From: an uncultured Chitinophaga sp.
Lineage (GTDB): Bacteria; Bacteroidota; Bacteroidia; Chitinophagales; Chitinophagaceae
NCBI GenBank assembly: GCA_964650455.1
Contig: CAZYTV010000003.1
Location: 1-51,461, forward strand
DNA: 51,461 bases
Direction: 5' to 3'
Part shown: positions 4,291-43,742 of the stretch, one piece after another
How the letters are laid out: every line of letters starts with the position of its first letter
Numbering within the stretch: position 1 is the stretch's first letter
The notes under the pieces: generated by a model
The model's database searches: none
Told to the model about the DNA's origin: nothing
What the model saw: the letters and a program-made list of their open reading frames with translations, nothing else
Made by a program: the position numbers and the translations under genes

Positions 4291-4311
4291 AATGTGTCGT
4301 TAGTACATATT
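4291..4311. promoter_or_regulatory. NrtR-type operator (TGTGT-N7-ACATA) upstream of amylase-nrtR
   Basis: aatgtgtcgttagtacatatt; GT-N7-AC core typical of NrtR boxes; sits just before a Bacteroidota -7-like element TAACTTCG (4315-4322). Confidence 0.7.
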
Positions 4312-4381
4312 TATTAACTTCGAACCCGGATATCCGGACCGGATCTGTCTTGCCGGAATCCGAATTGCTAAAAAGCTTGCT

Positions 4382-7294
4382 ATGAAAAAAACTGCAACAC
4401 TGCTGTTTGCATTGGTAATGGTGATTGTGTCAGCCAATGCCCAGTTACTCACCTGGACACCTGATTTTTCCAAAGACAATGATAATATCAGCATTACCAT
4501 GGATGCCAGTAAAGGCAACCAGGGTTTACTGAATTATAGTACGACATCGGATGTATATGTCCACATCGGCCTGATCACCAGTGCCAGTACGAGTGCCAGT
4601 GACTGGAAATATGCCAAATTTACCTGGGCGTCGACCACGGCCGCGGCGCAAGCCACTTATCTCGGCAACAATAAATGGTCTTACAGCATTAATAATCCCC
4701 GTACATTTTTTAATGCACCCACCGGTGTTCCGGCAGGGGAAACGATTCTAAAAATCGCGATCCTCTTCCGTAATGGTGCCGGTACCATTGTGCAGCGCAA
4801 TACGGATGCCAGTGATATGTACATCCCGGTCTATGATAATACCATTGCCACCCGTTTTACCGTTCCTCTTTTCCAACCTACCAATATCCGGATACCTGAG
4901 CCCATTTCAAAACAGGTGGGCGATAATATTCAGTTGACCGCCACTGCCAGTATTTCATCCACGATGAAATTATTCCTGAATGGTACGGAGATACAAACTG
5001 CTTCGGGTGTAACGACCATTTCTGCCAACCCGGTGCTGAGTACCGGGGGCAACCAGACGATCCGCGTGGATGCGATTGACGGGGCCACCACTAAATCGGA
5101 ATCCTTCCAGTTCTTTGTATCCACCCCGGTGAATATCGCTCCTTTACCGGCCGGTGTGCGGGATGGAATCAATTATGAAGCAGGGAATACTTCAGTAGTG
5201 CTTGTTTTATATGCACCCAACAAGACAAGGGTATCGGTGATCGGTGAGTTTCCCGGCAGTAACTGGGCCGAGCAAACTAACTATGTAATGAACAAAACAC
5301 CGGATGGCAATTACTGGTGGTTGCGGATCAGCAACCTGACCCCGGGAACAGAATACGCTTTTCAATACCTGGTGGATGGCAACCTGAAAGTAGGTGATCC
5401 TTATGCAGAGAAAATCCTGGATCCGAATAATGACACTTATATCACGGCCACTGTATATCCATCGTTGAAAGCCTATCCCACCGGTTTAACCTCCGGCATT
5501 GTAAGCGTGCTGCAGACCAATGCACCCGCTTATAACTGGGCCGTCAGTAATTTTGCCCGTCCGGATAAACGCAACCTCGTGATCTATGAAATGCTGCTGC
5601 GTGATTTTATTGAGGCCCATGACTGGAAAACACTTCGCGATACCCTGAATTATTTCCAGACAATGGGTATCAATGCCATCCAGTTGATGCCGGTCAATGA
5701 ATTTGATGGCAATGAAAGCTGGGGTTATAACCCTTCCTATTTTCTGGCACCGGATAAATATTATGGTCCAAAGAACCGGATGAAGGAGTTTATCGACAGT
5801 TGTCACCGCCGTGGCATTGCCGTGATCATGGATATTGCCCTCAATCATACCACAGGCGATAATCCTCTTGCCAAATTGTATTGGAATAGCAGTACGAATC
5901 AGCCGGCGGCCAATAATCCCTGGCTGAATGTAACTGCCACCCACCCGTACAATGTATTCAATGATTTCAACCATGAAAGCCTGCCCACCCGTTACTTCAC
6001 CTCCAGGGTGGTGGAACACTGGCTGCAGGAATATAAGATCGACGGATTCCGTTTTGACCTGTCTAAAGGATTTACCCAGAATGCACAGTGCGGGGCCAGT
6101 ACCAGCAATGAAGCCTGTATTGCACAGTATCATGCTGACCGCGTGGCGATCTGGAAACGATATTATGATTCCTGCCAGTTAAAAGCAGCGGGCAGTTATG
6201 TGATCCTGGAACATTTTGCAGCGGAAAATGAAGAAATTGAGTTGTCAGATTATGGCATGTTGTTATGGGGCAATGACACTTATAATTTTGATGAAGCCTC
6301 CATGGGCTGGGTCAATACTTCCAATTTTGACCGTTATCTCTACAGTTCCCGTGGCTGGAACAAGCCACACCTGGTGAGTTATATGGAGAGTCATGATGAG
6401 GAAAGGATGATGTACAAAAACCTGAATTTCGGCAATACCACAAACAGTGCACATAATGTCAGGGATCTGCCGGTTGCTTTAAGACGGGTGGAACTTTGCG
6501 CCGGTTTCTTCCTGGCTGCCCCCGGTCCGAAAATGGTATGGCAGTTTGGCGAACAGGGATATGATTTTTCGATCAATCGTTGTACTGACGGGACTATTAA
6601 TAACAATTGCCGGCTGAGTAATAAACCCATCCGCTGGGATTATTTAACGGTTACGGGCAGAAAGAGACTCTATGATATTTTCAGCAGTATGAATAAACTC
6701 AGGGCTCATCCCTGGTATAAAGATGTATTTACCGCCAATAATATTACCATCAGCCGCAGCCTGGCCGGGGCGTTTAAAACACTGACCCTGCGAAGTGCCA
6801 CCGATACCTCCATGTTATGTGTGATCGGCAACTTTGATGTGAATGCACAGACCAATACATTCACCTTCCCGGCAGCGGGTACCTGGTATGATTACCTGGG
6901 CGGCACTCCATTTACTTCCCCCGGAACCGCGCAGAGTTCTCCGCTTCAGCCCGGCGAATTGCATGTATTTGTAAACCGGAACCTGACCAATGCCGTAGTG
7001 ACTTCCGATGGCGGGGTAACCCCGGCAGGCACTGCCTTTACCGCTTCTGTCTTCCCGAATCCCGGAGTGGCCGGTTCACAACTGGAGATCAATACACCCC
7101 AGACAGGCCTGGTACAGGCAGAACTTTCAGATATCAGTGGCCGTAAACTGGGTACCGTTTTATCTCAAACTTTGACAAAAGGGAAGCACCGGATAGCTAT
7201 CGGTGAAAAAATAAGTATGTTGCCGGCAGGAATCTATATGATGTCCATCAGGACCGGAACAAAAACCATCCAGTTAAAACTGGCAATTCAATAA
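4382..7294 (+). CDS. Secreted GH13 alpha-amylase-like enzyme with N-terminal CBM-like modules, CBM48 and T9SS type A C-terminal domain
   Basis: Signal peptide; SWGYNP, DIALNH, DGFRFDL (nucleophile), ILEHF (acid/base), ESHDEER; C-terminal VFPNP...DISGRK...GIYM..KLAIQ T9SS signal. Architecture recalls Bacteroides ovatus BoGH13A-type amylases. Confidence 0.88.
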   Translation: MKKTATLLFALVMVIVSANAQLLTWTPDFSKDNDNISITMDASKGNQGLLNYSTTSDVYVHIGLITSASTSASDWKYAKFTWASTTAAAQATYLGNNKWSYSINNPRTFFNAPTGVPAGETILKIAILFRNGAGTIVQRNTDASDMYIPVYDNTIATRFTVPLFQPTNIRIPEPISKQVGDNIQLTATASISSTMKLFLNGTEIQTASGVTTISANPVLSTGGNQTIRVDAIDGATTKSESFQFFVSTPVNIAPLPAGVRDGINYEAGNTSVVLVLYAPNKTRVSVIGEFPGSNWAEQTNYVMNKTPDGNYWWLRISNLTPGTEYAFQYLVDGNLKVGDPYAEKILDPNNDTYITATVYPSLKAYPTGLTSGIVSVLQTNAPAYNWAVSNFARPDKRNLVIYEMLLRDFIEAHDWKTLRDTLNYFQTMGINAIQLMPVNEFDGNESWGYNPSYFLAPDKYYGPKNRMKEFIDSCHRRGIAVIMDIALNHTTGDNPLAKLYWNSSTNQPAANNPWLNVTATHPYNVFNDFNHESLPTRYFTSRVVEHWLQEYKIDGFRFDLSKGFTQNAQCGASTSNEACIAQYHADRVAIWKRYYDSCQLKAAGSYVILEHFAAENEEIELSDYGMLLWGNDTYNFDEASMGWVNTSNFDRYLYSSRGWNKPHLVSYMESHDEERMMYKNLNFGNTTNSAHNVRDLPVALRRVELCAGFFLAAPGPKMVWQFGEQGYDFSINRCTDGTINNNCRLSNKPIRWDYLTVTGRKRLYDIFSSMNKLRAHPWYKDVFTANNITISRSLAGAFKTLTLRSATDTSMLCVIGNFDVNAQTNTFTFPAAGTWYDYLGGTPFTSPGTAQSSPLQPGELHVFVNRNLTNAVVTSDGGVTPAGTAFTASVFPNPGVAGSQLEINTPQTGLVQAELSDISGRKLGTVLSQTLTKGKHRIAIGEKISMLPAGIYMMSIRTGTKTIQLKLAIQ

Positions 7295-7313
7295 CAGACC
7301 AAAAGCTGCAGCG

Positions 7314-8045
7314 ATGACGGAGAAAGCCTTACAACAACTGAAAACGGCGGAGACGGAGAAGATCAGTCACCTTGATTATTTCAATATTGGTATATCGATT
7401 GACTGTGTGATACTCGGATATGATGACAAAGAACTTAAAGTCCTGCTGATCAAATCGGATATGCAGGAGTTTTCCGGTCTCTACTCCCTGCTGGGCGATT
7501 TTATAAAACCCGATGAGGACCTGGAAGCGGCTTCTTACCGGGTACTCAAGGAAAGAACCGGGCTGGATGATGTTTTCCTGGAACAGGTAAAGACTTTTGG
7601 AAATATTTACCGTCACCCTTCAGGACGTGTTATCACTGTAGCTTATTATTCACTGATTGATGTGAGTAATCACAAACTGCAACTTGACCTGAATGAACTG
7701 CACTGGCATCCGGTGGATGAAATAAAGAAACTGGCTTTTGACCATAAACTGATCCTGGATACCTGTCTCGGCCGCCTGCGGGAGCAGGTGATGGAACACC
7801 CGGTGATTTTTAACCTGTTGCCGGAAAAATTCTCCCTGCGCGAATTACAGGAACTCTACCAGGCTATACTTGGCGTGGAACTGGACCGCCGTAATTTCCG
7901 GAAGAAAATCTCGATCAAAGACTGGCTGGTGGATATTGATGAAATGGAACGGGATGTGCCGCATCGTCCCGGTAAATTATACATGCTGAAAAAGCAATAC
8001 CGGAACAAAACAGCCAAAGGAACCATCCCTCATCTGATGGCCTGA
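7314..8045 (+). CDS. NrtR-family (Nudix + winged HTH) transcriptional regulator
   Basis: SIDCVI, degenerate Nudix box GDFIKPDEDLEAASYRVLKERTG, LAFDH, wHTH FSLRELQELYQAILGVELDRRNFRKKI, RPGKLY. Confidence 0.92.
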   Translation: MTEKALQQLKTAETEKISHLDYFNIGISIDCVILGYDDKELKVLLIKSDMQEFSGLYSLLGDFIKPDEDLEAASYRVLKERTGLDDVFLEQVKTFGNIYRHPSGRVITVAYYSLIDVSNHKLQLDLNELHWHPVDEIKKLAFDHKLILDTCLGRLREQVMEHPVIFNLLPEKFSLRELQELYQAILGVELDRRNFRKKISIKDWLVDIDEMERDVPHRPGKLYMLKKQYRNKTAKGTIPHLMA

Positions 8046-8046
8046 T

Positions 8047-9042
8047 TCAGAGGGAGCCGCCAATTACCAGGCGGGAAGGAAGTATGATTGATCGGGAAGG
8101 GGTGGGCCCAGCCATATTTTCCAGCATCCGTTTCACTGATAATTTTCCCAGTTCAAATCCACTGGTTTCGATATAGGTGACTTCCGGTTTATAAAGACCC
8201 GGAATAAACCCGTTGCTGATCGCCAGTACCGATACATCATCGGGTACACGCAGATCAGATTGGTGTACACTTTTCATAGCCCCGATCAGCAGTTCATCGC
8301 TCATGCAAAAGATATGATCTGGTTTGTTTTTTTTACTCAGCACTTCGGCGGTAATCTTCCGGGCTGCGGCACTGTTCAGGCAGTGCCGGATATCGATTGA
8401 GGGGGCTGACTTTTCTTTTTCAAAAACTTTCAGGAAAGCCTCTTTTCTTTTCTTTGTAATGGAAAGCTCGGCATTGCCCAACAGCGCCAGTATTTTTTTC
8501 TTTTTATACTTGAGGATGGTATTCGCCGCCATCGTTGCCGCTTCCTCATCGGCCATACAAATCGTATCCAACCCGGTTTCTTCCGGTACCTTATCAAAAA
8601 ACACCACCGGGGTACCGGAGTCTTTTAATTTATGATACAAAGGTGCCGAATTACTGTCGGCCACCAGGGAAATAAACACGCCATCAACCCGGTTCAGTTT
8701 ACAGAGTTTGAGATTCTCCGCTTCCTGCAACGGATCATCACCCGACTGCAGAATAATCAGTGAATAGCCATGCCGGCGGGCCTCCTCTTCCACAGCCGCG
8801 ATAAAGGAATCGTAAAACAGGTTTGAGATGACTGGTACAATAAGACCAAATACACGGCTTTTATTGGTACGCAGGTTTACGGCATAGGCATTTGGCTCAT
8901 ATTCCATCAGCAAGGCGAGCTCTTTTACTTTGCGTTTCGTGTTTTCGGAAATATCCGGATGATTCTTCAACGCACGGGAGACCGTAGAAATACTGATATT
9001 CAGTTGCGTTGAAATCTTTTTAAGTGTGGCGGGGCTTCCCAT
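8047..9042 (-). CDS. LacI-family transcriptional regulator (LacI-1)
   Basis: HTH TLKKISTQLNISISTVSRAL, YEPN..A..LR hinge, sugar-binding domain. Start placed at ATG 9042 rather than TTG 9087. Confidence 0.93.
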   Translation of the reverse strand: MGSPATLKKISTQLNISISTVSRALKNHPDISENTKRKVKELALLMEYEPNAYAVNLRTNKSRVFGLIVPVISNLFYDSFIAAVEEEARRHGYSLIILQSGDDPLQEAENLKLCKLNRVDGVFISLVADSNSAPLYHKLKDSGTPVVFFDKVPEETGLDTICMADEEAATMAANTILKYKKKKILALLGNAELSITKKRKEAFLKVFEKEKSAPSIDIRHCLNSAAARKITAEVLSKKNKPDHIFCMSDELLIGAMKSVHQSDLRVPDDVSVLAISNGFIPGLYKPEVTYIETSGFELGKLSVKRMLENMAGPTPSRSIILPSRLVIGGSL

Positions 9043-9081
9043 AAGCAGGTAATCGTATAGAATATAAAAGTAATTTTTCCA

Positions 9082-9108
9082 CCGCAAACATTTGCGGAAA
9101 TGTTTTCG
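9082..9108. promoter_or_regulatory. Two overlapping LacI-type operators
   Basis: CCGCAAACATTTGCGG (9082-9097) and CGGAAATGTTTTCG (9095-9108); AAAC/GTTT-type palindromes between divergent lacI-1 and susC1. Confidence 0.7.
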
Positions 9109-9136
9109 GTCTTTTTTTGCGGCATCAAACCCGTTG

Positions 9137-9157
9137 AGCGTGTTCTTGATACATCTA
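9137..9157. promoter_or_regulatory. Weaker NrtR-type operator upstream of susC1
   Basis: agcGTGTtcTTgaTACAtcta matches GTGTnnTTRRTACA; followed by -7-like TAAATTTA (9166-9173). Confidence 0.55.
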
Positions 9158-9380
9158 AATAACTATAAATTTATCCCGGATTGGAAATTTAACATTCTTT
9201 TTTTGAAAGCAGCAATGCGAAGGAATTAATTGCCTGAATCAAAGAACGAACGACTTTCCACCCCATTTTCGTTGAAACAAAAGCCGGTCCCCCCTTTTAG
9301 TTCCAGTGTTACATACGGATCAGGCCATATGAAGTTTGGATTATTACTCCGATTATAATTTTAAAAAAAATCGATTGCTT

Positions 9381-12377
9381 ATGTCTGCAAAAACTCTGCT
9401 TTCTGCTCTCCTTTGCCTAGTATTTGCGGTTTCTGTGCAGGTAGTATCTGCCCAGGACAGAACCGTAACAGGTAAAGTGACTGACTCAAAAGATGGTTCC
9501 CCCGTGTCGGGAGCTTCTGTTCAGCCCAAGGGCACCCGGACAGGAACTTCCACTCGTCCTGACGGAACCTTTTCCCTTTCCGTTGGATCAAATGTGAGTA
9601 CACTCGTGATTACTTCTGTGGGTTATGAATCCCAGGAGGTTTCCATTTCCGGAAAATCTTCTGTTGAAGTATCCTTTGTTGCTACGTTTGGTTCTAACCT
9701 GAATGAAGTGGTGGTAACCGGTTATGGGACTGCCAAGAAGAAAGACCTGACAGGTTCTGTAGGTTCTGTAAAGGAAAAAGACTTTAATAAAGGAGTCTTT
9801 ACTTCACCCGACCAGTTATTCCAGGGTAAAGTATCCGGTGTTCAGGTATTAAATAACAGTGGGCAGCCCGGTGGCGCTGCAACGATCAAAATCCGTGGTA
9901 ACTCTACGGTGACCGGTAGTGGTCAGCCGCTGTTTGTTGTAGATGGTGTTCCACTGGATGGCCGTTCTGCCCGTCCCGGTATCGGTGATATCGGCTTTGG
10001 TGGCGGTAACCCCGGCAGCAACCCCCTCAACTTTATAAACCCTTCGGATATCGTATCCATCGATATCTTAAAAGATGCTTCTGCCACAGCAATCTACGGA
10101 TCACGTGGTGCTTATGGGGTGGTACTGATCACCACCAAGCGTGGTAAATCAGGTGAACCGAAAGTTGATGTGAACATGTCTATCGGACAAGCTTCTATTA
10201 TGAATCGGATCGAAGTGTTAGATGCGGCACAGTTCCGCCAGGCACTGACCTATTACGGTGTCAGTGCTTCCAATGACAAAGGAGGTAATGTTAATGCGCT
10301 TGATGCCATTCTTCGTAATGCAGCTGTACAAAATTATAATGTTGCAATCAGTGGTGGTAACGAAAACGCTAAATACCGTTTATCCCTGGGTGCCCTTGAC
10401 CAGGAAGGTATTATCCGTAAATCAGGGATTAAAAAATATACTGCTAACCTGAACGCTAACTTTAAGTTCCTGGAAAGTAAAAAACTGGGTCTTGACATAA
10501 ACATCGTTCCCAGCCAGTATACGGAGCAGATTGCTCCTATTTCCAATGATGCCGGTGCTGGTAACAGCCTGATCGGTATGGCGCTCTCCTGGAACCCGAC
10601 CCAGCCGCTTAAAATTGGTGACTCTGTCGTGAACGTGGGTGGTAACTCCATCTTCAATCCCCTGGGTGTGTCCAACGCTATGAATGATAAATCAACAGTT
10701 ACAACTGTACTTGCAAGTATATCTCCTTACTACAAGTTTAACAGTTGGCTGGAGTACAAAATGATCTACAGTGTAAACTATGCCTCTGGTGTACGCAGAA
10801 CCAGCCGTGATCAGAATATCAACATGGCCGGTACAAGTACCTATACCGGTGTTGGTTTTGCCGGTATCGGGCAATCTGAATTAGTGACCAGGCAGATTAC
10901 ACATACCTTGTCATTAGACAGGAAGATCTCCAGTAACCTGAACCTGAACGCGGTGGTGGGTTATGAATACATGAAATTCAGCAACAAAGGATCGGGTATG
11001 AGTGCCAGCGGACCTACCGGCGGTTTCGGTCAGTTTGGTCTGGACTATACCAACTATATCCAGTATGGTGCTATCTCCACACGTAATGTTTTCTCTTATA
11101 TTGATCCAAGTTCAGAACTGCAATCTTATTTTGCAAGAACGGTGTTCAACTATAACGATAAATACCTGTTAACCGCCACTTTCCGTTCTGACGGTTCCAG
11201 CAAATTTGGTAAGAATAACCGCTACGGTTACTTCCCTTCTTTTGGTGCTGCCTGGAATATCAGCAAGGAAGATTTCTTCAAAGTGGATATTATCAACAAC
11301 ATGAAGATCCGTGCCGGCTGGGGTAAAACCGGTCAGCAGGAGTTTCCTGCTGGAGCTGCTGTTGAAAGGATTGCTTTTGGCAGCAATGGTAATAGTGCTG
11401 GCCGGATCAACTACGATAATGACGACTTGAAGTGGCAGTCTGACCGTCAGTACAATGTCGGTTTTGATATGACTGCTTTCAAAAACAAACTGACCCTGAC
11501 TGTTGACTATTTTAATAAGAAAACAACAGACTTGTTGTTTCCTGTAACTGCTGATCCTTATGGTCCAATTGCCACAGGTATCACATGGGATAATCTTGAT
11601 GGTTATGTAGAAAACAAAGGGCTTGAAATATCAGCAAATATTGCCGTAATAAATAAGAAAGACCTGGGATGGGATTTCGGAATAAACGCATCTTTTATTA
11701 AAAACATGGTAAAAGATATCCCGGCTCCGATTTATACAGGTACATTAAACGGCCAGGGTGTGTCTGGTACACTGGTACAGACTATTCAGAATGGTATGCC
11801 ACTGAATACGTTTTATACCCGTCGTTTTGAAGGGATGGACAAGGCAACCGGATTGGCCATTTATACCGATGAGGGTAACGTGTTCTATAATGTAGGGAAT
11901 CCCAACCCCAAAACGCTGTTGGGTATCTCAACCAGCCTTCGTTACAAAAAACTGAACCTGGCGGTTAACATGAACGGAGCCATGGGACAGGATATCTACA
12001 ACAACACGCTGAATAACGTAATCAACGTGGGTAGTATCAACGGCGGACGTAATATCGCGGTATCTGTATTCAAAGACCCGGTAAAAGAGTCCTTTGCTAA
12101 TCCTGTAACGGCTTCTTCAAGATTTATTGAAAACGGAAGTTACCTGAAGATGAGCAATGCCACCCTGAGCTATGCGTTGGGTAATGTAGGTAAGGCCTTT
12201 AAAAACGCAAATGTGTTTGTTACCGGTCAAAACCTGTTTGTGATCACTAAGTTCACTGGTTTCGATCCGGAGGTGAACGTGGATAAGAATGCCAACTTCG
12301 CTCCTTCTGTTGGTTTTGAATATCAGCCTTATCCCTCCGCCCGGACATTTACTTTAGGTGTAAACTTTTCATTATAA
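9381..12377 (+). CDS. susC: SusC/RagA-family TonB-dependent transporter (SusC1)
   Basis: Signal peptide, N-terminal extension, LNEVVVTGYG, INPSDIVSIDILKDASATAIYGSRGAYGVVLITTKRG plug signature, C-terminal YPSARTFTLGVNFSL. Start placed at ATG 9381. Confidence 0.96.
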   Translation: MSAKTLLSALLCLVFAVSVQVVSAQDRTVTGKVTDSKDGSPVSGASVQPKGTRTGTSTRPDGTFSLSVGSNVSTLVITSVGYESQEVSISGKSSVEVSFVATFGSNLNEVVVTGYGTAKKKDLTGSVGSVKEKDFNKGVFTSPDQLFQGKVSGVQVLNNSGQPGGAATIKIRGNSTVTGSGQPLFVVDGVPLDGRSARPGIGDIGFGGGNPGSNPLNFINPSDIVSIDILKDASATAIYGSRGAYGVVLITTKRGKSGEPKVDVNMSIGQASIMNRIEVLDAAQFRQALTYYGVSASNDKGGNVNALDAILRNAAVQNYNVAISGGNENAKYRLSLGALDQEGIIRKSGIKKYTANLNANFKFLESKKLGLDINIVPSQYTEQIAPISNDAGAGNSLIGMALSWNPTQPLKIGDSVVNVGGNSIFNPLGVSNAMNDKSTVTTVLASISPYYKFNSWLEYKMIYSVNYASGVRRTSRDQNINMAGTSTYTGVGFAGIGQSELVTRQITHTLSLDRKISSNLNLNAVVGYEYMKFSNKGSGMSASGPTGGFGQFGLDYTNYIQYGAISTRNVFSYIDPSSELQSYFARTVFNYNDKYLLTATFRSDGSSKFGKNNRYGYFPSFGAAWNISKEDFFKVDIINNMKIRAGWGKTGQQEFPAGAAVERIAFGSNGNSAGRINYDNDDLKWQSDRQYNVGFDMTAFKNKLTLTVDYFNKKTTDLLFPVTADPYGPIATGITWDNLDGYVENKGLEISANIAVINKKDLGWDFGINASFIKNMVKDIPAPIYTGTLNGQGVSGTLVQTIQNGMPLNTFYTRRFEGMDKATGLAIYTDEGNVFYNVGNPNPKTLLGISTSLRYKKLNLAVNMNGAMGQDIYNNTLNNVINVGSINGGRNIAVSVFKDPVKESFANPVTASSRFIENGSYLKMSNATLSYALGNVGKAFKNANVFVTGQNLFVITKFTGFDPEVNVDKNANFAPSVGFEYQPYPSARTFTLGVNFSL

Positions 12378-12398
12378 GAAATAACAAAAATTTTCCTT

Positions 12399-13973
12399 AT
12401 GATACGTAAACTCTTTTTCTTACTTGTTTTTTCCTCCGTGGTACTGCTTGGCTGTACCAAACTGGAGCAAAAATTTGAAGGCGAACTTACTTCCGGCCAG
12501 GTAAGTTCAGGTGGCAACACCAATACAGCCGCCCTGCTTTCTGGTTTGTATAATTCCATGCAAGGCCTCTTCCAGGACCAGGCGGGTATCTATGCCCTCT
12601 GGGAAATGACCACCGATGAACTGATCGGACCCACCCGCGGACCAGACTGGGATGATAATGGTGTTTGGCGCGTACTGCATGCCCAGAAATATGATGGCGA
12701 AAACCAACGTATTGTGGATGCCTTCAAAAACCTGAATGGTATTGCTTTTGGTGCAACAGATATGCTACGTTATAGTCCATCTGCTCAGCAAAAGGCTGAA
12801 GCGCGTATGCTGAGGTCCCTCGCAGAGTTTATGCTGCTGGACGGCTGGGGGCAGGTCAACTATCGTGAGCCCGGTGAAAGTGTACTGACACCTTCTAATG
12901 TACGTGTTGGTTCAGTAGCACTTGATTATATTATCGCTGAGTTGCAGGCTGTGATTCCTGACCTTCCCAATGGTCCTGCATTTACCGCCAATAAAAACGC
13001 GGCCCGTGTGCTGCTGATGAAGTGTTTCCTGAACAAAGGCGTATGGGCGACCAACGCTTCCCGTCTGAACCCCACTTTTGCTCCGGCGGATATGAACCAG
13101 GTGATCAGCCTGGCTGACCAGATCATTAACTCAGGTCTGTATAGTATCCCGGCTAGCTACTTTGACAACTTTGCACCAACCAACGGATCTATCGGAAGTG
13201 AAAACATCTTCACCCAGGAAAACAAGGGTGGTGTACAGGCCGGTAACCTCCAGTCACGCTGGCGCTCTACCATGCACTACAACCAGAACCCCGGCGGATG
13301 GAATGGTTTCACTACTTTATCTGATTTCTATGGCAAGTTCGAAGCTGCTGATAAAAGAAGAGGTGTGAATTACCCGACCGCAGGTGGTCCGCCCAACCCC
13401 GGAAACCGCCAGACCGTTGGTCTGTTCCTGGGTCAGCAATATGACCTCACAACCAACGCAGCCCTGCAGGACAGAACCGGTGCTCCGCTTGCTTTCACCG
13501 CTACAGTGAAAAGTGTGGAGACAGGTACTAACCTCGAAGTAACAGGTATCCGTGCGTTCAAATACCCTATCGATTATGTAAATACCGGTGCAGGGTCCAT
13601 TGATAACGACTACGTTTACTTCCGTCTCGCTGATGTACTCCTGATGAAAGCAGAAGCCATCCTGAGAGGGGGTACTGGTACGGCAGCCGGATCTTACGGC
13701 AGCACAGCGGTAGCCCTCGTGAACTCCGTACGTACCCATGCTTCCCGTGGTGCCAGCACCCTGGCTTCTGTTACACTGGATCAGTTGCTGGACGAAAGAG
13801 GACGTGAACTGTACCTGGAAAGCTGGAGAAGACAGGATATGATCCGCTTCGGCAAATTCCTCGCTCCATTCCAGGAAAAAAATTATACCAGCGACGACAA
13901 ATATATTCTGTTCCCCGTGCCTAACAGGTTCCTGGCAGTGAACCCGAACCTGACCCAGAACCCGGGGTACTAA
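12399..13973 (+). CDS. susD: SusD/RagB-family lipoprotein (SusD1)
   Basis: Lipobox LLGC; TTDE..PTRGPDWDD.G.W; FRLADVLLMKAEA; ERGRELYLE..RRQD.IRFG; NPNLTQNPGY. Confidence 0.95.
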   Translation: MIRKLFFLLVFSSVVLLGCTKLEQKFEGELTSGQVSSGGNTNTAALLSGLYNSMQGLFQDQAGIYALWEMTTDELIGPTRGPDWDDNGVWRVLHAQKYDGENQRIVDAFKNLNGIAFGATDMLRYSPSAQQKAEARMLRSLAEFMLLDGWGQVNYREPGESVLTPSNVRVGSVALDYIIAELQAVIPDLPNGPAFTANKNAARVLLMKCFLNKGVWATNASRLNPTFAPADMNQVISLADQIINSGLYSIPASYFDNFAPTNGSIGSENIFTQENKGGVQAGNLQSRWRSTMHYNQNPGGWNGFTTLSDFYGKFEAADKRRGVNYPTAGGPPNPGNRQTVGLFLGQQYDLTTNAALQDRTGAPLAFTATVKSVETGTNLEVTGIRAFKYPIDYVNTGAGSIDNDYVYFRLADVLLMKAEAILRGGTGTAAGSYGSTAVALVNSVRTHASRGASTLASVTLDQLLDERGRELYLESWRRQDMIRFGKFLAPFQEKNYTSDDKYILFPVPNRFLAVNPNLTQNPGY

Positions 13974-14012
13974 AATTTTTCAGAGCTAAGCAGTTAGCAA
14001 TTTTAGCAATTC

Positions 14013-34341: not shown

Positions 34342-34352
34342 ATACCAGTTGA

Positions 34353-35633: not shown

Positions 35634-35727
35634 TTATAGTGGACTGCCGGCCGGGCAGGCAGGTCTTTGTTTCTGTTATTTTTAAAAATAACCCATCATT
35701 CCCGTGCGGGCAAATACCAGCCGGACC

Positions 35728-35741
35728 TATAACGTTTGCGT
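35728..35741. promoter_or_regulatory. LacI-type operator upstream of MFS-trehalase
   Basis: tatAACGTTTGCGt (minus strand aCGCAAACGTTata), sharing the CGCAAAC half-site of 9082-9097. Confidence 0.6.
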
Positions 35742-35757
35742 GGATAAATAATCAGGA

Positions 35758-36750
35758 TCAGATGGATCCGCCTTCGATCAGTTCAGCCTCGAGGTAGCTG
35801 AATTCAGGAAATGGTTCCTGCCGGATCGCCGCCATCATTTGTGAAAAAGCCAGCTTGCCCAGTTTCCCGCCATTGGTTTCCACATACGTGATCTTGGGAT
35901 CATACATCGTGGGAAAAAGGCCGTTACTGATACTGATCACCGAAATTTCTTCGGGTACTTTCAGCCGCATTTCATGAATGGCCTGCATCACACCCACCAG
36001 GATCATATCACCCATGCAAAAGACCACATCCGGCCGGTCTTTACTTTGCAGGGCTGCCAGGCATACTTCCCTGGATTTATCAATACCTTCCGGGTAATCA
36101 ATGGAAAACTGTGGAACCGGGTCTGCCTTTTCCAGGGTTTCCCGGAATGAAGCGGCCCTCATCCTGGTGATACTTAAATGCGGATGACCAAAAAGCCCCA
36201 ATACCTTTTTCTTTTTTTTCAATAATATGGTTTCAGCCGCCATCCTCGCTGCTTTGGCATCGGATAAACAGACTTTATGATAATCCGGCAATTCAGGCAC
36301 ACGATCAAAAAATACCACCGGAATCTTCAGGTCCCGCAGTTTTTGAAAGGAAGACATGTCTTCGGTTTCAATGGAGACCGAGGCAAAAACTCCCGATACC
36401 ATATTTTTCCGGAAGAGGTGCAGGTTGGCATTTTCAATTTCAAGATGATCTCTTGACTGCATAATCAGTACAGAATAACCCTGTTCACGGGCCAGCTCTT
36501 CAACAGAGGCAATAAAGGAATCGTAAAAGAAGTTATCGATCGAAGGAACCAGTATCCCTAGTATATTACTCTGGCGGGTTCTTAACTGTACGGCATTGTG
36601 ATTGGGCTCATATTCCAGTGCTAAGGCCAGTTCCCGTACCCGGGTCTTGGTTGTCTCTGAAATATCAGGGTGATCTTTCAGGGCCCTGGATACAGTAGAG
36701 ATACTGATACCCAGCACTTCTGATAGTTTTTTCAGCGTGCTTTGCTGCAT
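35758..36750 (-). CDS. LacI-family transcriptional regulator (LacI-2), paralog of LacI-1
   Basis: TLKKLSEVLGISISTVSRALKDHPDISE..K..YEPN..A..LR. Confidence 0.93.
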   Translation of the reverse strand: MQQSTLKKLSEVLGISISTVSRALKDHPDISETTKTRVRELALALEYEPNHNAVQLRTRQSNILGILVPSIDNFFYDSFIASVEELAREQGYSVLIMQSRDHLEIENANLHLFRKNMVSGVFASVSIETEDMSSFQKLRDLKIPVVFFDRVPELPDYHKVCLSDAKAARMAAETILLKKKKKVLGLFGHPHLSITRMRAASFRETLEKADPVPQFSIDYPEGIDKSREVCLAALQSKDRPDVVFCMGDMILVGVMQAIHEMRLKVPEEISVISISNGLFPTMYDPKITYVETNGGKLGKLAFSQMMAAIRQEPFPEFSYLEAELIEGGSI

Positions 36751-36811
36751 GAATAATAGTTAAGCAATCGGAAGTAAACAAATGTTAGCAACTAAAGATA
36801 GTTTTTATTTA

Positions 36812-36852
36812 AACAATAAGAGGCGTTGTAATTCTTTACAACGCCCCTTATT
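36812..36852 (-). terminator. Intrinsic terminator ending the haloperoxidase cassette
   Basis: 17-bp stem aataagaggcgttgtaa-ttct-ttacaacgccccttatt with one mismatch that is a G-U pair on the minus strand; 25 bp past the 36878 stop. Confidence 0.8.
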
Positions 36853-36877
36853 TGCCTATGTCAGGCTATAAAAAAAC

Positions 36878-38431: not shown

Positions 38432-38432
38432 G

Positions 38433-39380
38433 TCAGTTCTTTTTTGAGGATTGATCACCCGATGATTTTTTGCTGTTCAGATCAAGTACATAGAAAAAGG
38501 ATCCATAAACGGTACTGGTCTGACCCATATTTCTGCCCGCCAGCGTCAGGTTTCCCCCGGTTACAACAGACAACTGGGGAACAGATGGAATCACATACTT
38601 GATATTAATACCGGCGGTGGTGACATTCATCCGATTGCTGGGGAAAGGCATATTGTTCCGGGTGATATCAAATCCACCCAGAGTGGTCCAGTTGTTAACC
38701 ACCGCTTCCGCGATCAGCCGGAATGAACGGTATCCTGCCCGGAAATTAAAATTCATGGCATCGGGCATGGCTACTTTATCGGTCAGGTGAAGCTGTGTGG
38801 TATAATAGGAATTGCGGTCAATTTCAATATTACTGCGTAAAACATAGGTGGCAGAACCCGTCACAAAGAGTTTCCCCAACAGGTAATCGCCCATAACCCT
38901 GGCAGATACTGTTTTACTTTTCAGGCCAATGGACAAGGGAAGGTAATCGGGTGTATAATTACTGGTGGGAACAGAAAGACCGGCAATACCAAAAACAGAC
39001 AAAATGCCGTTACCCCGTTTTTTATGGTAAGCCCTCCATTTGGCAAACAGGCTGAGATCCTGCAGACCCTGCATGCCTTTCATGGTTCCGGCGGACGCCT
39101 TTGTTTTCATATAGGGCAGACTGAAAAGCAGGTTCAGTTTACGGCTGGCCCCGTAATTGCCCATCACACTGTAAACACTGCCGGATACAGTTCCGAGATT
39201 CAGGTTATTCCGTTTCAGGGTGCCTTCCCAGTAGTTTTTCCAGCTGCTGTAGCTGTACATGGGTCCCACACAAAAGGCATTTTTCTCCATCATGATGGCA
39301 TCAATATCGGTCTGGCCATACACTTTTCCACCGGCCAGTACCATGCAGGTAATGCCCAATGAAATAATCAGGTATTTCAT
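38433..39380 (-). CDS. Exported protein, probable outer-membrane beta-barrel (MetA-pathway/'transporter'-like)
   Basis: Signal peptide, alternating amphipathic strands, LPYM...GLQDLSLFAKW motif; lies between two VHPO genes. Confidence 0.6.
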   Translation of the reverse strand: MKYLIISLGITCMVLAGGKVYGQTDIDAIMMEKNAFCVGPMYSYSSWKNYWEGTLKRNNLNLGTVSGSVYSVMGNYGASRKLNLLFSLPYMKTKASAGTMKGMQGLQDLSLFAKWRAYHKKRGNGILSVFGIAGLSVPTSNYTPDYLPLSIGLKSKTVSARVMGDYLLGKLFVTGSATYVLRSNIEIDRNSYYTTQLHLTDKVAMPDAMNFNFRAGYRSFRLIAEAVVNNWTTLGGFDITRNNMPFPSNRMNVTTAGINIKYVIPSVPQLSVVTGGNLTLAGRNMGQTSTVYGSFFYVLDLNSKKSSGDQSSKKN

Positions 39381-39408
39381 GTTAAAATCGTTGGTTTTTG
39401 TTTCGCAA

Positions 39409-40734
39409 TTATTTTTTCATCCGGAGACGCTGGTTGACCAGGTCTCCCACTTTTCTTCCATACTCTGTACTCACGATACAGGAGCTATGAAAGTGAATCC
39501 CTCCGTAAAAACGGGCCCAGTTATTTTCCAGGGCCGCCTGGCGGAAAGAAGTAAATGATCTGTTTTTAATGCCAAACTCCAGTTCCGAGGTGTCGGTATA
39601 AGCAAAATGATCGCCAAATACACTGGTCAGCGCTTCAGCGGCAGAAGAAGAAACCGTACTGTGCCCGCAGGTATACTCCGGGAAGGGAGGTGTCTGCAGG
39701 AAAGGTTTCCACTCCGCATCAACATATTTATTGATGACCGTTTCCGGCCGTACCGTATTGCTCCTGAATTTCTCATCCCAGCACTGGATAAAGCCATCGA
39801 ACATGGCGATTGCAGTCTTCGTATACGCATAAACGGTAGTGTTGTAATCCACTTTAGCTTTTTGCGCGGCAATACCCACAATATTCATCCAGTGACCGGG
39901 GGGCGAGAATTTCTTGGTCATAAACATCACGTGCCCGGATACATTCAGCCGGGTGCCCAGGTCATCCCAGAATTCCGCGATATGCTTTTGCTCGTCGGTT
40001 AAACTGTCGCCTGCATTTTTCACCGCCATGACTTCCTTGTAGTATACACTGTTTTTATTCTTTATATCAAAAGGGGGTGGTGGCGGCGGCGTAAACATAT
40101 CGGCGCTGTCCATGACCATGGTCCGGATCTCTCTCCAATGTGGTTCGAGGGCCTGTGCATACATGGGTGGTGTCGGAATCCAGCGGCCGGGTGTGTCTAT
40201 CACGGTGTATTTGGGGGCGGTCCTTGTTTGCGCATAGTTGTCTTTCTTACTCCAGGCCAGGATCACTTTACCAACCGTGTCAGCAAAGGCGACGGTGTTT
40301 TTATATACAGATCCGGGCATGCCATGATCTTTCACCAGTTTTTTCAGGCTGTCCACATAGTCCTGCATACTGCCTTCCGGAAAAGTAACCGCTTCGCCAA
40401 GTTTGCAGAACGCGAGAATACTGGCAAAATGGAAATCAATTTCCTGTCCGGCGGGTGCGGCTGGTACGACACTGAGCCCATTCACCTGTCCGGCGAGTGA
40501 CTGGTACTGATCCGGGTAACCGGCGGCGATGATCTCATAAGCCGCGATATTGGCATAGAGATAATTCCTGGAAGCAATGATGGGCGGAAAATTATTCTGC
40601 ATCACCACATTGTTCAGTTCTTTCACCGTTTTGGAATAGAGGAAAGGGTTGCCCGTGATTTCTTTATAATCACTTTTAGTATTACAGGCACTTACAGCAA
40701 TCAATGCTGCAATAGCCACAACTGCTATACGCAT
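39409..40734 (-). CDS. Vanadium-dependent haloperoxidase/PAP2-family lipoprotein (flavobacterial VIPO-like)
   Basis: Lipobox VSAC; CWDEKFRSNTVRP, TPPFPEYTCGHS, RFYGGIH. Start placed at ATG 40734. Confidence 0.88.
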   Translation of the reverse strand: MRIAVVAIAALIAVSACNTKSDYKEITGNPFLYSKTVKELNNVVMQNNFPPIIASRNYLYANIAAYEIIAAGYPDQYQSLAGQVNGLSVVPAAPAGQEIDFHFASILAFCKLGEAVTFPEGSMQDYVDSLKKLVKDHGMPGSVYKNTVAFADTVGKVILAWSKKDNYAQTRTAPKYTVIDTPGRWIPTPPMYAQALEPHWREIRTMVMDSADMFTPPPPPPFDIKNKNSVYYKEVMAVKNAGDSLTDEQKHIAEFWDDLGTRLNVSGHVMFMTKKFSPPGHWMNIVGIAAQKAKVDYNTTVYAYTKTAIAMFDGFIQCWDEKFRSNTVRPETVINKYVDAEWKPFLQTPPFPEYTCGHSTVSSSAAEALTSVFGDHFAYTDTSELEFGIKNRSFTSFRQAALENNWARFYGGIHFHSSCIVSTEYGRKVGDLVNQRLRMKK

Positions 40735-40789
40735 ACGAATTCGTTTGTTAAAATAGTTGAAATAAAAAAAAGAATGGAGTCTGGATGAA

Positions 40790-41344
40790 TCAGCACTCCG
40801 GGGGGGCATGTGGTACCTGGCCGTTTATCTCAACCGGGAGAAGCAAATAGCCGTCATGAAAAGTAATTGACAGCATGACCACTTTACTTGAGAAAGCAGT
40901 ATTCAACTGATCATCAAAATCTCCCAGGCTGTTTTTTATAAGGGTGGGTGATGGTTGTTTCTGTGTTCCCTGTTCCGTGGTGGACAGCATGCTGTTGGCG
41001 CGGGTCAGATCAAAGCGCATATCTTTCAGTTGCTGGCGCGATTGGTTAGGTATGCACTGGAAGATCACCACATCACCATCGATCTTTTTCTTTACATAGG
41101 TATAGGACTGTCCATCGATTTCAATATTACCATAGTGACGTTCGTACCCGGTATAGCGTTGCTGGTAAGGCATGTTCAGCGGCATCCGGATTTCAATAAG
41201 ATTCGTTTCATCATACACTTCCTGGTCGAGCATCGATTCCAGGTTGCGGTCGGCTTTATGCTGCAGCAGGTTGATAAAAGGATGATACCCTCCTGTACTG
41301 AACAGGAGGATCAGTGAAAAGCATATGGCAATTATCTTTCTCAA
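40790..41344 (-). CDS. Hypothetical exported/membrane-anchored protein ending in HAPP-EC
   Basis: TTG start, N-terminal hydrophobic segment, compact domain (IEIRMPLNMPY...G.IEIDG..Y.YVK...CIPN), low-complexity linker, terminal VPHAPPEC. Confidence 0.75.
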   Translation of the reverse strand: MRKIIAICFSLILLFSTGGYHPFINLLQHKADRNLESMLDQEVYDETNLIEIRMPLNMPYQQRYTGYERHYGNIEIDGQSYTYVKKKIDGDVVIFQCIPNQSRQQLKDMRFDLTRANSMLSTTEQGTQKQPSPTLIKNSLGDFDDQLNTAFSSKVVMLSITFHDGYLLLPVEINGQVPHAPPEC

Positions 41345-41365
41345 GTCAGCAGTCGTCGGTTTTTA

Positions 41366-43399
41366 TTACCGCACAATATATGTTTTTTTCTCCCGTCCCG
41401 CACCGGTAATGGTCAGGCTTTTCCAATGACCAGGAAGTGCTGTTTTTAGCTGCACCAGTCCCTTTGGGGTGATTTCGATTCCACCAAATCCCATCAGGAT
41501 ACTCTGCAGAATACCTCCGGCACCTGTGGCAAAATACGGGTTGGTGCCTCCTTTTGTTTCAGCGATCACGCGGAACGGCGGATTCAGATTGGGCAGGTAA
41601 GCCTCTTTAAACCAATGATATGCTTTTTCACCTTCGCCCAACCGCGCATACAGGGTTGTGAATACCGCTTGAGTCATGGCAGGTGTACCTTCATTGGGAA
41701 CCCGCTTTTCATAATATTCAAGATCCTTCCGGATGGCATTGGGGTCCCTCACTTCTTTCAGCGGATAAGCCAGCAGGTTTACATCAGCCTGTTTAATGCC
41801 TTCGCCTGTATAGGTAGCATGTTCTTTTGTCACCCCGTCATCGAATTTCAAAATCGGAATATTAGCCGCTACCAGCATCCAGTCCGGATCAGCAGGGATG
41901 CCTAAAACGTTGGCGGCTTCAGTGGCAAACTGCAGGTTGGCCCTGGCGGCTGCATTGGTAAATGCATCGTTGTCGACGTTTTCGGCCCACTCATCAGCGG
42001 CAACCACATTATTTATATCATAGTGACCGGGTCCTTTTCTTTCCACCCGGCTGGACCAGAAATCGGCCGTGGCGGAGAGCATGGGCCATCCTTTTTCACG
42101 CAGCCAGTTTTTATCCTGAGTTACACAGTAGTAATTCCAGGCGGCAATGGCCACACAGCCTGTTATATGATGTTCAAAGGGTCCGCTCAGTGCCCATACC
42201 GGTGTTTCTTCCACACCGGAATCTGCACTTTCCCAGGGAAACATCGCTCCTTTATAACCTTTGCTGAATGCATTTCTTTTAGCCGCATCCAATCGCTGGA
42301 AACGGTATTCCATCATGCTTTTGGCGAGCCCGGGATGCAATACCAGTAAAGCCGGGTACATCCACAACTCGGTATCCCAGAATACATGACCATTATACCC
42401 CAGGCCGCTCAGTCCCATTGGCGAAGGGGATAAAGCCGTGCCTTCCCGGGTAAATGAATAAAGATGATAGAGCATGCTGTGCACATCCTGCTGTGCCTGC
42501 GGATCCCCTTCAATCGTAATATCACTCTTCCAGAGTTCATGCCAGGCATTGGTATGGAATTGCAACAGCCGTTCCCTCCCTTCCAGTTTTGCAAATATGG
42601 TCGACCGCTCTGCTTCATTCAGCGGGTCGGCATGATGAGCAGACGTAATGGATGAACCGGCAATGGAAAAACGATAGGTTTCACCGGCTTTCATGCCGCG
42701 GGAAAATTTCATCAGGTGCATATTATTATCCCACATTTCATGGATCACCCGGGGTTCCTGTCCATGGGCTTCGGGAAATAAGAAGGTGTTACTGGCGCAC
42801 ATCAGTAATTTACCGGTCGGACTTTTTGCGGAAGAAGTAAGCAGGCTGATCCTGACATGCGGCCTGTCGATCTCATTGTAATAATTCTGTACCTCTTTCA
42901 ATGCATCAGGTGCTTCCATTACACTGGCGCCACCGAGACGGAAATCTTTTTTGGCCGTAACCGTGATATCCATCAGTACGGTATAGGGTAAATGACGTAA
43001 GGAGTAATAGGTATAACTGATCCTGGCCTTATCTCCATAGTCAAAGGAAGTGGTAAAGGCTGCTTTCTTCATATCCAGTTCCTGTTGCAGGTTACTGGCT
43101 TCTGTGCTGCCAATACTTCGGCCATCAATGTCCAGCCGCATATTCAGGAGGTTGAAACTCTTTAGAAAATTGCTCACCCGGCCCCGGCCATACAGGTCAT
43201 AAGCCCCGGCCAGCACCACGTCTTTTACGGTAAAGGGTTCAGGAGAAGAAACAATGCCGATCATTCCATTGGCTACTGTTATACCATAATAGTTGGCTGC
43301 ATCTGTTTTACCCGAAGTTATCTTCCATGGGTCCGGCTGACCGGCTACCGGGATGGATAGAATAATCACGTATAGTGTAAGACATATCGTGCGCCACAT
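41366..43399 (-). CDS. Secreted GH65 glycoside hydrolase (kojibiose hydrolase/PGGHG-like rather than phosphorylase)
   Basis: Signal peptide; YNGHVFWDTELW, FPWES, VVAADEW (general acid), KQAD, and TPAMT at the position of the phosphorylase phosphate-binding loop. Confidence 0.88.
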   Translation of the reverse strand: MWRTICLTLYVIILSIPVAGQPDPWKITSGKTDAANYYGITVANGMIGIVSSPEPFTVKDVVLAGAYDLYGRGRVSNFLKSFNLLNMRLDIDGRSIGSTEASNLQQELDMKKAAFTTSFDYGDKARISYTYYSLRHLPYTVLMDITVTAKKDFRLGGASVMEAPDALKEVQNYYNEIDRPHVRISLLTSSAKSPTGKLLMCASNTFLFPEAHGQEPRVIHEMWDNNMHLMKFSRGMKAGETYRFSIAGSSITSAHHADPLNEAERSTIFAKLEGRERLLQFHTNAWHELWKSDITIEGDPQAQQDVHSMLYHLYSFTREGTALSPSPMGLSGLGYNGHVFWDTELWMYPALLVLHPGLAKSMMEYRFQRLDAAKRNAFSKGYKGAMFPWESADSGVEETPVWALSGPFEHHITGCVAIAAWNYYCVTQDKNWLREKGWPMLSATADFWSSRVERKGPGHYDINNVVAADEWAENVDNDAFTNAAARANLQFATEAANVLGIPADPDWMLVAANIPILKFDDGVTKEHATYTGEGIKQADVNLLAYPLKEVRDPNAIRKDLEYYEKRVPNEGTPAMTQAVFTTLYARLGEGEKAYHWFKEAYLPNLNPPFRVIAETKGGTNPYFATGAGGILQSILMGFGGIEITPKGLVQLKTALPGHWKSLTITGAGREKKTYIVR

Positions 43400-43457
43400 A
43401 CAGCAAGTTTGAAGTAATTTAATCAGTACTTACTTACCGTCAGCATATTCCGGGTTA

Positions 43458-43471
43458 CGAAAACGATTCCG
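43458..43471. promoter_or_regulatory. LacI-type operator upstream of GH65
   Basis: CGAAAACGATTCCG; 12/14 identical to the reverse complement of 9095-9108 (CGAAAACATTTCCG). Confidence 0.55.
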
Positions 43472-43672
43472 GTGGATAATATGCAGGTTTCATTTTAATG
43501 CTTTACAGCAGCCGGTTTAGGTGATTCTAATCAGTCGTAAAGCATGACTTCAAACGGGCATGGGACCGGATATATTTGTTTAATGTTTATTAATCAGCCG
43601 ATTAAATAATTAGACAATAGTTACACAACTGGTATAAATGGCAAAACTTACAGGAGGATTGGAAAAATAATT

Positions 43673-43702
43673 TTTGGAACCCTTAAAATATTCCTAATAT
43701 TG
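43673..43702 (+). promoter_or_regulatory. Putative Bacteroidota sigma-A promoter of susC2
   Basis: TTTG (43673-43676), 18-bp spacer, TAATATTG (43695-43702; one mismatch to TAnnTTTG). Confidence 0.5.
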
Positions 43703-43742
43703 TGTGTTTAATACACATTCCAATGTGTCTTTGATACATAAT
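43699..43742. promoter_or_regulatory. Two tandem NrtR-type operators over the susC2 promoter
   Basis: attgtgtgtttaatacacatt (43699-43719) and aatgtgtctttgatacataat (43722-43742); TGTGT-N7-ACAYA; centres 23 bp apart. Confidence 0.75.

What the first reader, a model, noticed from the sequence alone, without database searches (positions are those of the whole stretch)
4291..43742. An NrtR-family regulon read from the DNA: four operators linking the amylase-nrtR operon and both susC promoters
Seen: aatGTGTcgTTagTACAtatt (4291), agcGTGTtcTTgaTACAtcta (9137), attGTGTgtTTaaTACAcatt (43699) and aatGTGTctTTgaTACAtaat (43722). All fit GTGTnnTTRRTACA, lie in the same orientation and sit at predicted promoters. 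Known: NrtR-family proteins bind ~21-bp GT-N7-AC palindromes; characterized members control NAD metabolism or pentose use (Bacteroides AraR/XylR). Inference: the local NrtR (7314-8045) autoregulates and represses a secreted amylase plus SusCD(EF) systems. That would be a Nudix-fold sensor for an alpha-glucan- or galactan-derived effector instead of SusR/HTCS/ECF control, none of which is in the window.
Basis: partly seen in the sequence, partly recalled or inferred. Interest (0 to 1): 0.78.

Follow-up and report, generated by a model that had tools for sequence, protein, structure and literature searches.

The report
Nudix-type repressor running starch use
The four repeated DNA boxes are real and are likely the binding sites of a neighbouring sugar-sensing repressor that is predicted to switch on starch capture, starch breakdown and part of glycolysis across a common family of soil and freshwater bacteria, a job I did not find described for this kind of regulator.

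Summary
The four sites are present exactly as stated (4 matches, 0.03 expected). They belong to a 21-bp palindrome, AWTGTGT-N7-ACAYAWT, that overlaps predicted promoters. The nearest named relatives are Chitinophagaceae. A matrix built from the four sites alone finds the motif upstream of amyA in 57 of 59 and of the starch susC in 46 of 48 relatives, and in 0 of 156 control regions. In genomes lacking this NrtR it is found at 1 of 13 starch susC and 0 of 5 amylase promoters; those loci often carry LacI or HTCS regulators instead. The regulon reaches beyond the window: malT-susA, SusB-like GH97, alpha-glucan phosphorylase and two pfkA-pyk operons. The protein keeps AraR's DNA-reading residues but has a different, invariant sugar pocket. 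Binding and the effector (glucose or maltose likely) are untested. Verdict: a new alpha-glucan branch of the NrtR family.

The parts
4291..4311 (+). Operator 1 (strong), upstream of amyA-nrtR; lies over the promoter spacer and the expected -33 position
   Evidence: conserved in 57 of 59 relatives at >=14 bits
4315..4322 (+). Predicted -7 promoter box (TAACTTCG) of amyA, 3 bp after operator 1
   Evidence: a -7-like box 23-25 bp from the operator start in 53 of 59 relatives; -7 consensus from PMC9723704
4382..7294 (+). amyA: secreted GH13 alpha-amylase-like enzyme with CBM48 and a T9SS sorting domain
   Evidence: Pfam PF00128, PF02922; TIGR04183 above cut-off
7314..8045 (+). nrtR: NrtR-family regulator (degenerate Nudix domain plus winged helix); 19 bp after amyA, likely co-transcribed
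   Evidence: Pfam; best solved relative BtAraR, E 2e-45; model pLDDT 87, Foldseek top hit AraR, TM 0.73
   Evidence: Pfam PF00356/PF00532; ATG at 9042
9082..9109 (.). Tandem LacI-type operators between lacI1 and susC1
   Evidence: alignment of 25 intergenic regions; LacI-like site in 23 of 24 relatives; the LacI palindrome form is recalled knowledge
9137..9157 (+). Operator 2 (weak), upstream of susC1
   Evidence: >=10 bits in 15 of 24 lacI1-susC1 regions with a matrix left without this site, at a shifted position in some
9166..9173 (+). Predicted -7 box of susC1 (TAAATTTA)
   Evidence: conserved column block; position; inferred
9381..13973 (+). susC1-susD1, head of a locus for alpha-glucoside disaccharides (amylosucrase-like GH13, trehalase, fructokinase, kojibiose hydrolase nearby)
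43695..43702 (+). Predicted -7 box of susC2 (TAATATTG), overlapping the first four bases of operator 3
   Evidence: same offset in 46 of 46 relatives
43699..43719 (+). Operator 3 (strong), over the predicted transcription start of susC2
   Evidence: 46 of 48 relatives at >=14 bits
43722..43742 (+). Operator 4, tandem with operator 3 (2 bp gap); kept only in a subset of relatives
43785..51057 (+). susC2-susD2-susE-susF: starch-type outer membrane uptake system
   Evidence: Pfam SusE and X25; SusD2 matches solved SusD 3CK7 at E 5e-94

Best explanation
The four boxes are likely operators of the adjacent NrtR-family protein (7314-8045), which is predicted to act as a sugar-released repressor of a starch (alpha-glucan) regulon spread over the genome. 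As a dimer it would bind AWTGTGT-N7-ACAYAWT over the promoters of amyA-nrtR (autoregulation), susC2DEF (two sites), malT-susA, a SusB-like glucosidase, an alpha-glucan phosphorylase and two pfkA-pyk operons, and weakly at susC1, where a LacI protein shares control. A starch breakdown product entering the catalytically dead Nudix pocket would loosen the dimer from DNA, as L-arabinose does for BtAraR. My odds for the effector: glucose about 35%, maltose or maltodextrin about 30%, a hexose phosphate about 25%, a nucleotide sugar about 10%. Shown: sites, their conservation, their co-occurrence with the gene, residue patterns. Inferred: binding, repression, co-transcription, the effector.
For: (1) Matrix from the four window sites only: >=14 bits upstream of amyA 57 of 59 and susC2 46 of 48, against 0 of 156 susD, ASPIC, DUF2461 and NUMOD4 regions. 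(2) 200 family genomes: exact pattern in 101 of 128 with the ortholog, 5 of 29 with only a distant paralog, 9 of 43 with none; 394 matches against 30 for the reversed control in ortholog genomes. Among genomes with SusE: 91 of 106 against 4 of 22. (3) Starch loci of genomes without the ortholog: 1 of 13 susC2 and 0 of 5 amyA promoters score >=14; 7 of those 13 loci have a LacI gene and one an HTCS; G135 keeps ligA...amyA-susCDEF without nrtR and without sites. (4) 35 of 46 genomes whose only NrtR-family match is this ortholog carry the pattern, so AraR is not needed. (5) Own genome: the seven best hits (>=20 bits; shuffles gave 0, 1, 0) are three window sites, malT-susA, pfkA-pyk, GH97 and one unexplained site. 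(6) 26 of 42 pattern sites fetched away from nrtR in relatives precede alpha-glucan genes and 2 precede glycolysis genes. (7) BtAraR binds GTGT-N7-ACAC through D178-K179-R180-N181, K184, K204-R205 (PMC4666351); the matching D191-R192-R193-N194, K197 are invariant in 101 of 101 orthologs and H217-R218 in 100 of 101. (8) Sites overlap -7-like boxes, the position of NrtR repressors.
Against: No binding or expression experiment exists. The genomes are kin, and many ortholog-negative genomes are distant lineages, so the counts overstate independence. NrtR paralogs read similar boxes: two fetched sites sit at another NrtR paralog (L166, L170) and AraR- and NAD-type loci show related sites, so cross-talk is possible. 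27 of 128 ortholog genomes have no exact match and 9 of 42 fetched sites are unexplained. Where nrtR has no amylase in front, only 4 of 10 loci show a site. The pfkA site is kept in only part of the family (13 of 30 against 2 of 30 at >=10 bits with a softer matrix; 6 of 30 against 1 of 30 at >=12 with the strict one). No glucokinase/glucose-transporter site was found in the one region checked, and an invariant basic residue (R81) sits where SoNrtR binds a phosphate, so the effector is open.
Confidence: 0.85

Rival explanations
1. The boxes are read by another NrtR paralog, such as the AraR of the arabinose operon on contig C15, and the local gene is a bystander.
For: BtAraR binds GTGT-N7-ACAC; the genome has a second NrtR gene in an ara operon; related sites occur at paralog loci.
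Against: 35 of 46 genomes with no other NrtR-family match carry the pattern; genomes with paralogs only mostly lack it (5 of 29); the ara operon's own site has different flanks and scores 5.2 bits.
Confidence: 0.04
2. The boxes belong to one of the LacI regulators or to an unknown global factor (for example a Crp-like activator).
For: Two LacI genes lie in the window; LacI genes sit at starch loci of other family members.
Against: A separate LacI-type palindrome is conserved next to lacI1; 38 of 79 loci have susC2 with no LacI gene in the fetched flank while the site is nearly universal there; LacI-associated starch loci lack the site; the odd 7-bp spacer fits NrtR, not the even LacI or Crp palindromes (recalled).
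Confidence: 0.04
3. The protein is the cognate factor but acts as a general glycolytic-flux sensor for a sugar phosphate, with starch genes as its largest target set.
For: Sites before both pfkA-pyk operons in this genome, before pfkA in 13 of 30 relatives and before an aldolase gene; 22 ortholog genomes have no SusE match, 10 of them still with the pattern; R/K81 is invariant; NrtR genes divergent from pfkA exist in another family (L273, L274).
Against: Three of four phosphate contacts of SoNrtR are lost and an invariant Asp (D62) enters the pocket; 26 of 42 fetched targets are alpha-glucan genes against 2 glycolytic. This differs from the best explanation only in effector and emphasis.
Confidence: 0.22
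4. It is an ordinary ADP-ribose-sensing NAD regulator, and operator 1 serves the divergent NAD-dependent DNA ligase gene.
For: ligA lies divergent from amyA-nrtR or nrtR in most loci, 82 bp from operator 1.
Against: No NAD biosynthesis gene among targets; the NAD-type signature R48, RDPR is replaced by S48, RHPS; separate clade from NAD-linked paralogs; NCBIfam NF050029 score 121 against a cut-off of 400; the -7 box points to amyA.
Confidence: 0.02

Closest known systems
BtAraR (BT0354), L-arabinose-responsive NrtR-family repressor of Bacteroides thetaiotaomicron (PMC4666351; results sections and passages read; supplements listed, not read)
   Same: Nudix plus winged-helix fold, 21-bp GTGT-N7-ACAC-type site, tandem sites a few bases apart, control of SusCD loci plus cytoplasmic catabolism, retained sugar-ring residues R100 and H144.
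   Different: About 35% identity, separate clade; arabinose O4 contact R34 is S48, G48 is D62, RDP is RHP; flanks AATGTGT rather than AAGTGT; targets are starch genes and pfkA-pyk.
XylR (BT0791) and the pentose NrtR regulons of Bacteroidetes (PMC2330246, passages and section 14; PMC3878776, passages)
   Same: Sugar-catabolic NrtR with a GT-N7-AC palindrome at promoters.
   Different: Only arabinose, xylose and pentose-phosphate targets are listed in the passages read; no starch, maltose or glycolysis regulon. I had no XylR sequence, so it was not compared directly.
SusR of the B. thetaiotaomicron starch utilization system (PMC3878776, passages)
   Same: Controls the same gene set: susA, susB, susCDEF and an amylase.
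   Different: SusR is a membrane activator sensing periplasmic maltose, with long-spaced direct repeats; this is a soluble predicted repressor with palindromic operators that also reaches the inner-membrane transporter, phosphorylase, amylomaltase and pfkA-pyk.
NAD-metabolism NrtR (SoNrtR, ADP-ribose sensor; PMC2330246)
   Same: Family fold, degenerate Nudix box, 21-bp site.
   Different: ADP-ribose contacts mostly lost; no NAD genes among targets.

Membership tests
NrtR family | N-terminal Nudix-like domain fused to a C-terminal winged helix | tested here: met
   PF00293 and PF21906 above cut-off; Foldseek top hits AraR and SoNrtR
NrtR family | Impaired Nudix signature (ligand binding, not hydrolysis) | tested here: met
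   Box positions read D62, V/I77, R/K81 in 101 of 101 orthologs; inactivity itself not assayed
NrtR family | 21-bp palindromic site with GT-N7-AC core | tested here: met
   48 distinct sites; definition in PMC2330246 section 14
NrtR family | Sites overlap or follow the promoter (repressor position) | tested here: met
   fixed offsets to -7-like boxes, 53 of 59 and 46 of 46; promoters are predicted, not mapped
NrtR family | Protein binds the site and an effector releases it | not testable with these tools
   needs EMSA
AraR subfamily | Arabinose contacts R34, R86, H131 all conserved | tested here: not met
   R34 is S48 in 100 of 101; R100 and H144 kept
AraR subfamily | Linked to and regulating ara genes | tested here: not met
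   75 of 79 loci have amyA or susC beside it; a separate AraR lies in the ara operon
NAD-type NrtR | ADP-ribose contacts and NAD gene targets | tested here: not met
   no NAD targets
SusR system | Membrane-bound SusR activator next to the sus genes | tested here: not met
   none among window proteins; PF19904 (recalled as the SusR-like family) has no match over cut-off in this 81%-complete genome
XylR subfamily | Orthology to BT0791 and xyl gene linkage | tested here: inconclusive
   no BT0791 sequence at hand; no xyl genes seen beside the ortholog

The most novel reading that the evidence does not exclude
A previously undescribed NrtR branch is the main starch regulator of Chitinophagaceae: a dead Nudix enzyme sensing glucose or maltose that couples the whole route from secreted amylase and SusCDEF import to phosphofructokinase and pyruvate kinase, doing the job of SusR by the opposite logic, and swapped for LacI or HTCS regulators where it was lost; related members beside starch-binding genes or pfkA in other Bacteroidota may mark an older hexose-sensing lineage.
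Probability: 0.6. Interest if true: 0.65.

Novelty: new variant of a known kind. Interest (0 to 1): 0.55.

Why it matters
Regulation of starch use in Bacteroidota is known mainly from gut Bacteroides (SusR). This gives a different, testable solution in a large environmental family: the ortholog was found in 128 of 200 sampled genomes, annotated only as a NUDIX hydrolase or 8-oxo-dGTPase. It would extend the NrtR family from ADP-ribose and pentoses to a hexose or glucan signal, supply an operator that identifies starch genes and their regulation in uncultured genomes, and offer an inducible promoter and sugar biosensor for a family with few genetic tools.

Tried and rejected
Galactan effector: no galactan-active enzyme among window proteins or fetched targets. 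RNA element: no Rfam match in the window. The sigma-70 scan is not suited to this phylum and found nothing above chance; it showed no terminator-like site on the + strand between amyA and nrtR. Expression: 9 RNA runs held only small shares of susC2; four laid runs are contigs of relatives covering susC2-susF and not GH65, which cannot show starts, strand or level, so not used as evidence. The ortholog-trained strict matrix was too sharp for weak sites, so a softer one was built afterwards; both results are reported. The structure model confirmed the fold only; no coordinates were available for pocket geometry. The second tree failed at rooting, so placement of the pfkA-linked proteins L273 and L274 was not obtained; the first tree is midpoint-rooted FastTree and left out proteins under 190 aa. 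G028 was counted as paralog-only by E-value but falls in the clade on a long branch with an altered pocket; its starch locus has an HTCS and no site. Ortholog-negative genomes G099 and G123 carry sites but are fragmented; G123 has ligA-site-amyA at a contig end, so nrtR may be unassembled. No complex prediction was run. Literature: searches listed no paper on an NrtR starch regulon; RegPrecise, subscription journals and the supplements of PMC2330246, PMC3878776 and PMC4666351 were not seen and could hold such a prediction.
Full report
Observation. The four 21-mers are at the stated coordinates. Since the pattern came from these sites, I relied on other genomes for the real test.

Setting. The window is contig C3 of an 81%-complete genome whose nearest named relatives are Chitinophagaceae. 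It is an alpha-glucan region: amyA (secreted GH13), nrtR, lacI1, susC1-susD1, three ASPIC/FG-GAP genes, transporters, two more GH13s (one amylosucrase-like), fructokinase, trehalase, lacI2, a kojibiose hydrolase (NF053734, 1197 bits against a cut-off of 800) and susC2-susD2-susE-susF.

The regulator. The 243-aa protein has Nudix and NrtR winged-helix domains. Its closest solved relative is BtAraR by sequence and by predicted fold. Its orthologs form a clade apart from AraR-, NAD- and other paralogs in a midpoint-rooted tree of 71 proteins. The genome has one other NrtR gene, inside an arabinose operon on C15. Orthologs (E <= 1e-70) were found in 128 of 200 family genomes; outside the family, 9 of 284 genomes had weaker matches at E <= 1e-52, some beside amylase, starch-binding or susC genes.

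Conservation. In 79 loci chosen by protein similarity, 75 have amyA or a susC beside nrtR. A matrix made from the four window sites alone scored >=14 bits upstream of amyA in 57 of 59, susC2 in 46 of 48 and susC1-like genes in 14 of 34, against 0 of 156 control regions. The consensus is AWTGTGT-N7-ACAYAWT; the central TT varies. This is the GT-N7-AC core of the family (PMC2330246 section 14) and the GTGT-N7-ACAC form bound in the BtAraR-DNA crystal (PMC4666351). The AraR base-reading residues map to D191, R192, R193, N194, K197, H217 and R218 (mapping with a three-residue offset that I inferred); the first five are invariant in 101 of 101 orthologs.

Does the site follow this gene? The exact pattern occurs in 101 of 128 ortholog genomes, 5 of 29 with only a distant paralog and 9 of 43 with none; among SusE-bearing genomes 91 of 106 against 4 of 22. 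I fetched 20 starch-gene regions from ortholog-negative genomes: 1 of 13 susC2 promoters (an AT-rich match lacking GTGT) and 0 of 5 amyA promoters reached 14 bits. Seven of the 13 have a LacI gene in the locus and one an HTCS. G135 keeps ligA, amyA and susCDEF together without nrtR and without sites. 35 of 46 genomes with no other NrtR match carry the pattern. These genomes are related, so this is a pattern, not a statistical test.

Promoter anatomy. With the -7 consensus TAnnTTTG (PMC9723704, two passages), amyA has a -7-like box 23-25 bp after the operator start in 53 of 59 relatives, and susC2 has one overlapping the first four operator bases in 46 of 46. Operator 1 thus covers the spacer and the expected -33 position (recalled), and operators 3-4 the start and leader: repressor positions. 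At susC1, LacI-type operators are present in 23 of 24 relatives and an NrtR site in 15 of 24, in several at a new position, which suggests dual control with selection to keep an NrtR site.

Extent of the regulon. In the own genome, strong intergenic sites lie before malT-susA (C21:14054), pfkA-pyk (C77:1771 and C147:8735) and a SusB-like GH97 (C192:5876), a weaker one before alpha-glucan phosphorylase (C11:24438), and two are unexplained (C7:39382, C349:278). In relatives I fetched 40 regions around 42 pattern sites away from nrtR, picked from the 150 rows shown of 420: 26 precede amylases, GH77, phosphorylase, malT/susA or susC2; 2 glycolytic operons; 2 a sugar-phosphate nucleotidyltransferase; 2 another NrtR paralog; 1 another susC; 9 are unexplained (my tally). 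The pfkA site is lineage-limited: 6 of 30 against 1 of 30 with the strict matrix, 13 of 30 against 2 of 30 with a softer one built later; the negatives that score are fragmented assemblies.

Mechanism. By analogy with BtAraR (EMSA and structures), the apo dimer would repress and a sugar would release it. The Nudix box is broken (D62, V/I77, R/K81). The ring-binding R100 and H144 and F142, V106 are kept; the arabinose O4 contact is S48, and D62 and H101 are invariant or nearly so. Three of four phosphate contacts of SoNrtR are lost, one (R81) is kept. A roomier pocket near C4-C6 with an added acid fits glucose or an alpha-1,4-linked sugar best, but this is inference from sequence only.

Novelty. 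The passages read list NAD, arabinose, xylose and pentose-phosphate regulons for the family and SusR, HTCS and ECF for PULs. Eight searches (listings only for the papers not named above) showed no NrtR starch regulon; RegPrecise and supplements were not seen. One earlier unchecked note of this scan reached the same reading in another genome; it is not independent support.

Verdict. Observation confirmed; interpretation right in its core, incomplete on LacI and regulon size, unsupported on galactan. New variant of a known kind; interest 0.55.

Noticed in passing
window:9082-9109: Tandem LacI-type operators conserved in 23 of 24 relatives; they lie well upstream of the predicted susC1 promoter and 40-67 bp from the lacI1 start, so they may autoregulate lacI1 or even activate susC1.
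   Followed up: partly
window:14094-24167: Three tandem ~1,115-aa ASPIC/UnbV-FG-GAP genes follow susD1 and are conserved with it in relatives; their role in an alpha-glucoside locus is unexplained.
   Followed up: no
window:25192-43399: Cluster for several alpha-glucosides: amylosucrase-like GH13, oligo-glucosidase-like GH13, fructokinase, trehalase, kojibiose hydrolase (GH65), three transporters and a second LacI 48% identical to the first.
   Followed up: partly
window:36878-41344: A PAP2/vanadium-haloperoxidase-like gene, a MetA-like barrel and two genes with no Pfam match (466 and 184 aa); the last two stay divergent from susC2 in some relatives (L006, L010, L011).
   Followed up: no
window:2107-4209: NAD-dependent DNA ligase, NUMOD4 and DUF2461 genes stay linked to nrtR across the family even where starch genes have gone.
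   Followed up: partly
L273:1459-3251 and L274:394-2175: In another Bacteroidota family an NrtR gene with the RHP pocket motif is divergent from pfkA; possibly a related hexose regulator.
   Followed up: partly
L203:5843-6541 (G028): Long-branch member of the clade with a decayed pocket; its genome's starch locus has an HTCS and no operator, as expected of a regulator being replaced.
   Followed up: partly
G000 C77 and C147 (L081, L082): Two pfkA-pyk operons (PfkA 81% identical), both with an operator; a duplication or strain mixture in the assembly was not excluded.
   Followed up: no
5' ends of susC1, susC2, amyA, malT and pfkA: A conserved stretch resembling ACGATTGCT(T) directly before many start codons in this family, also in genomes without the regulator; probably a translation-initiation signal.
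   Followed up: no
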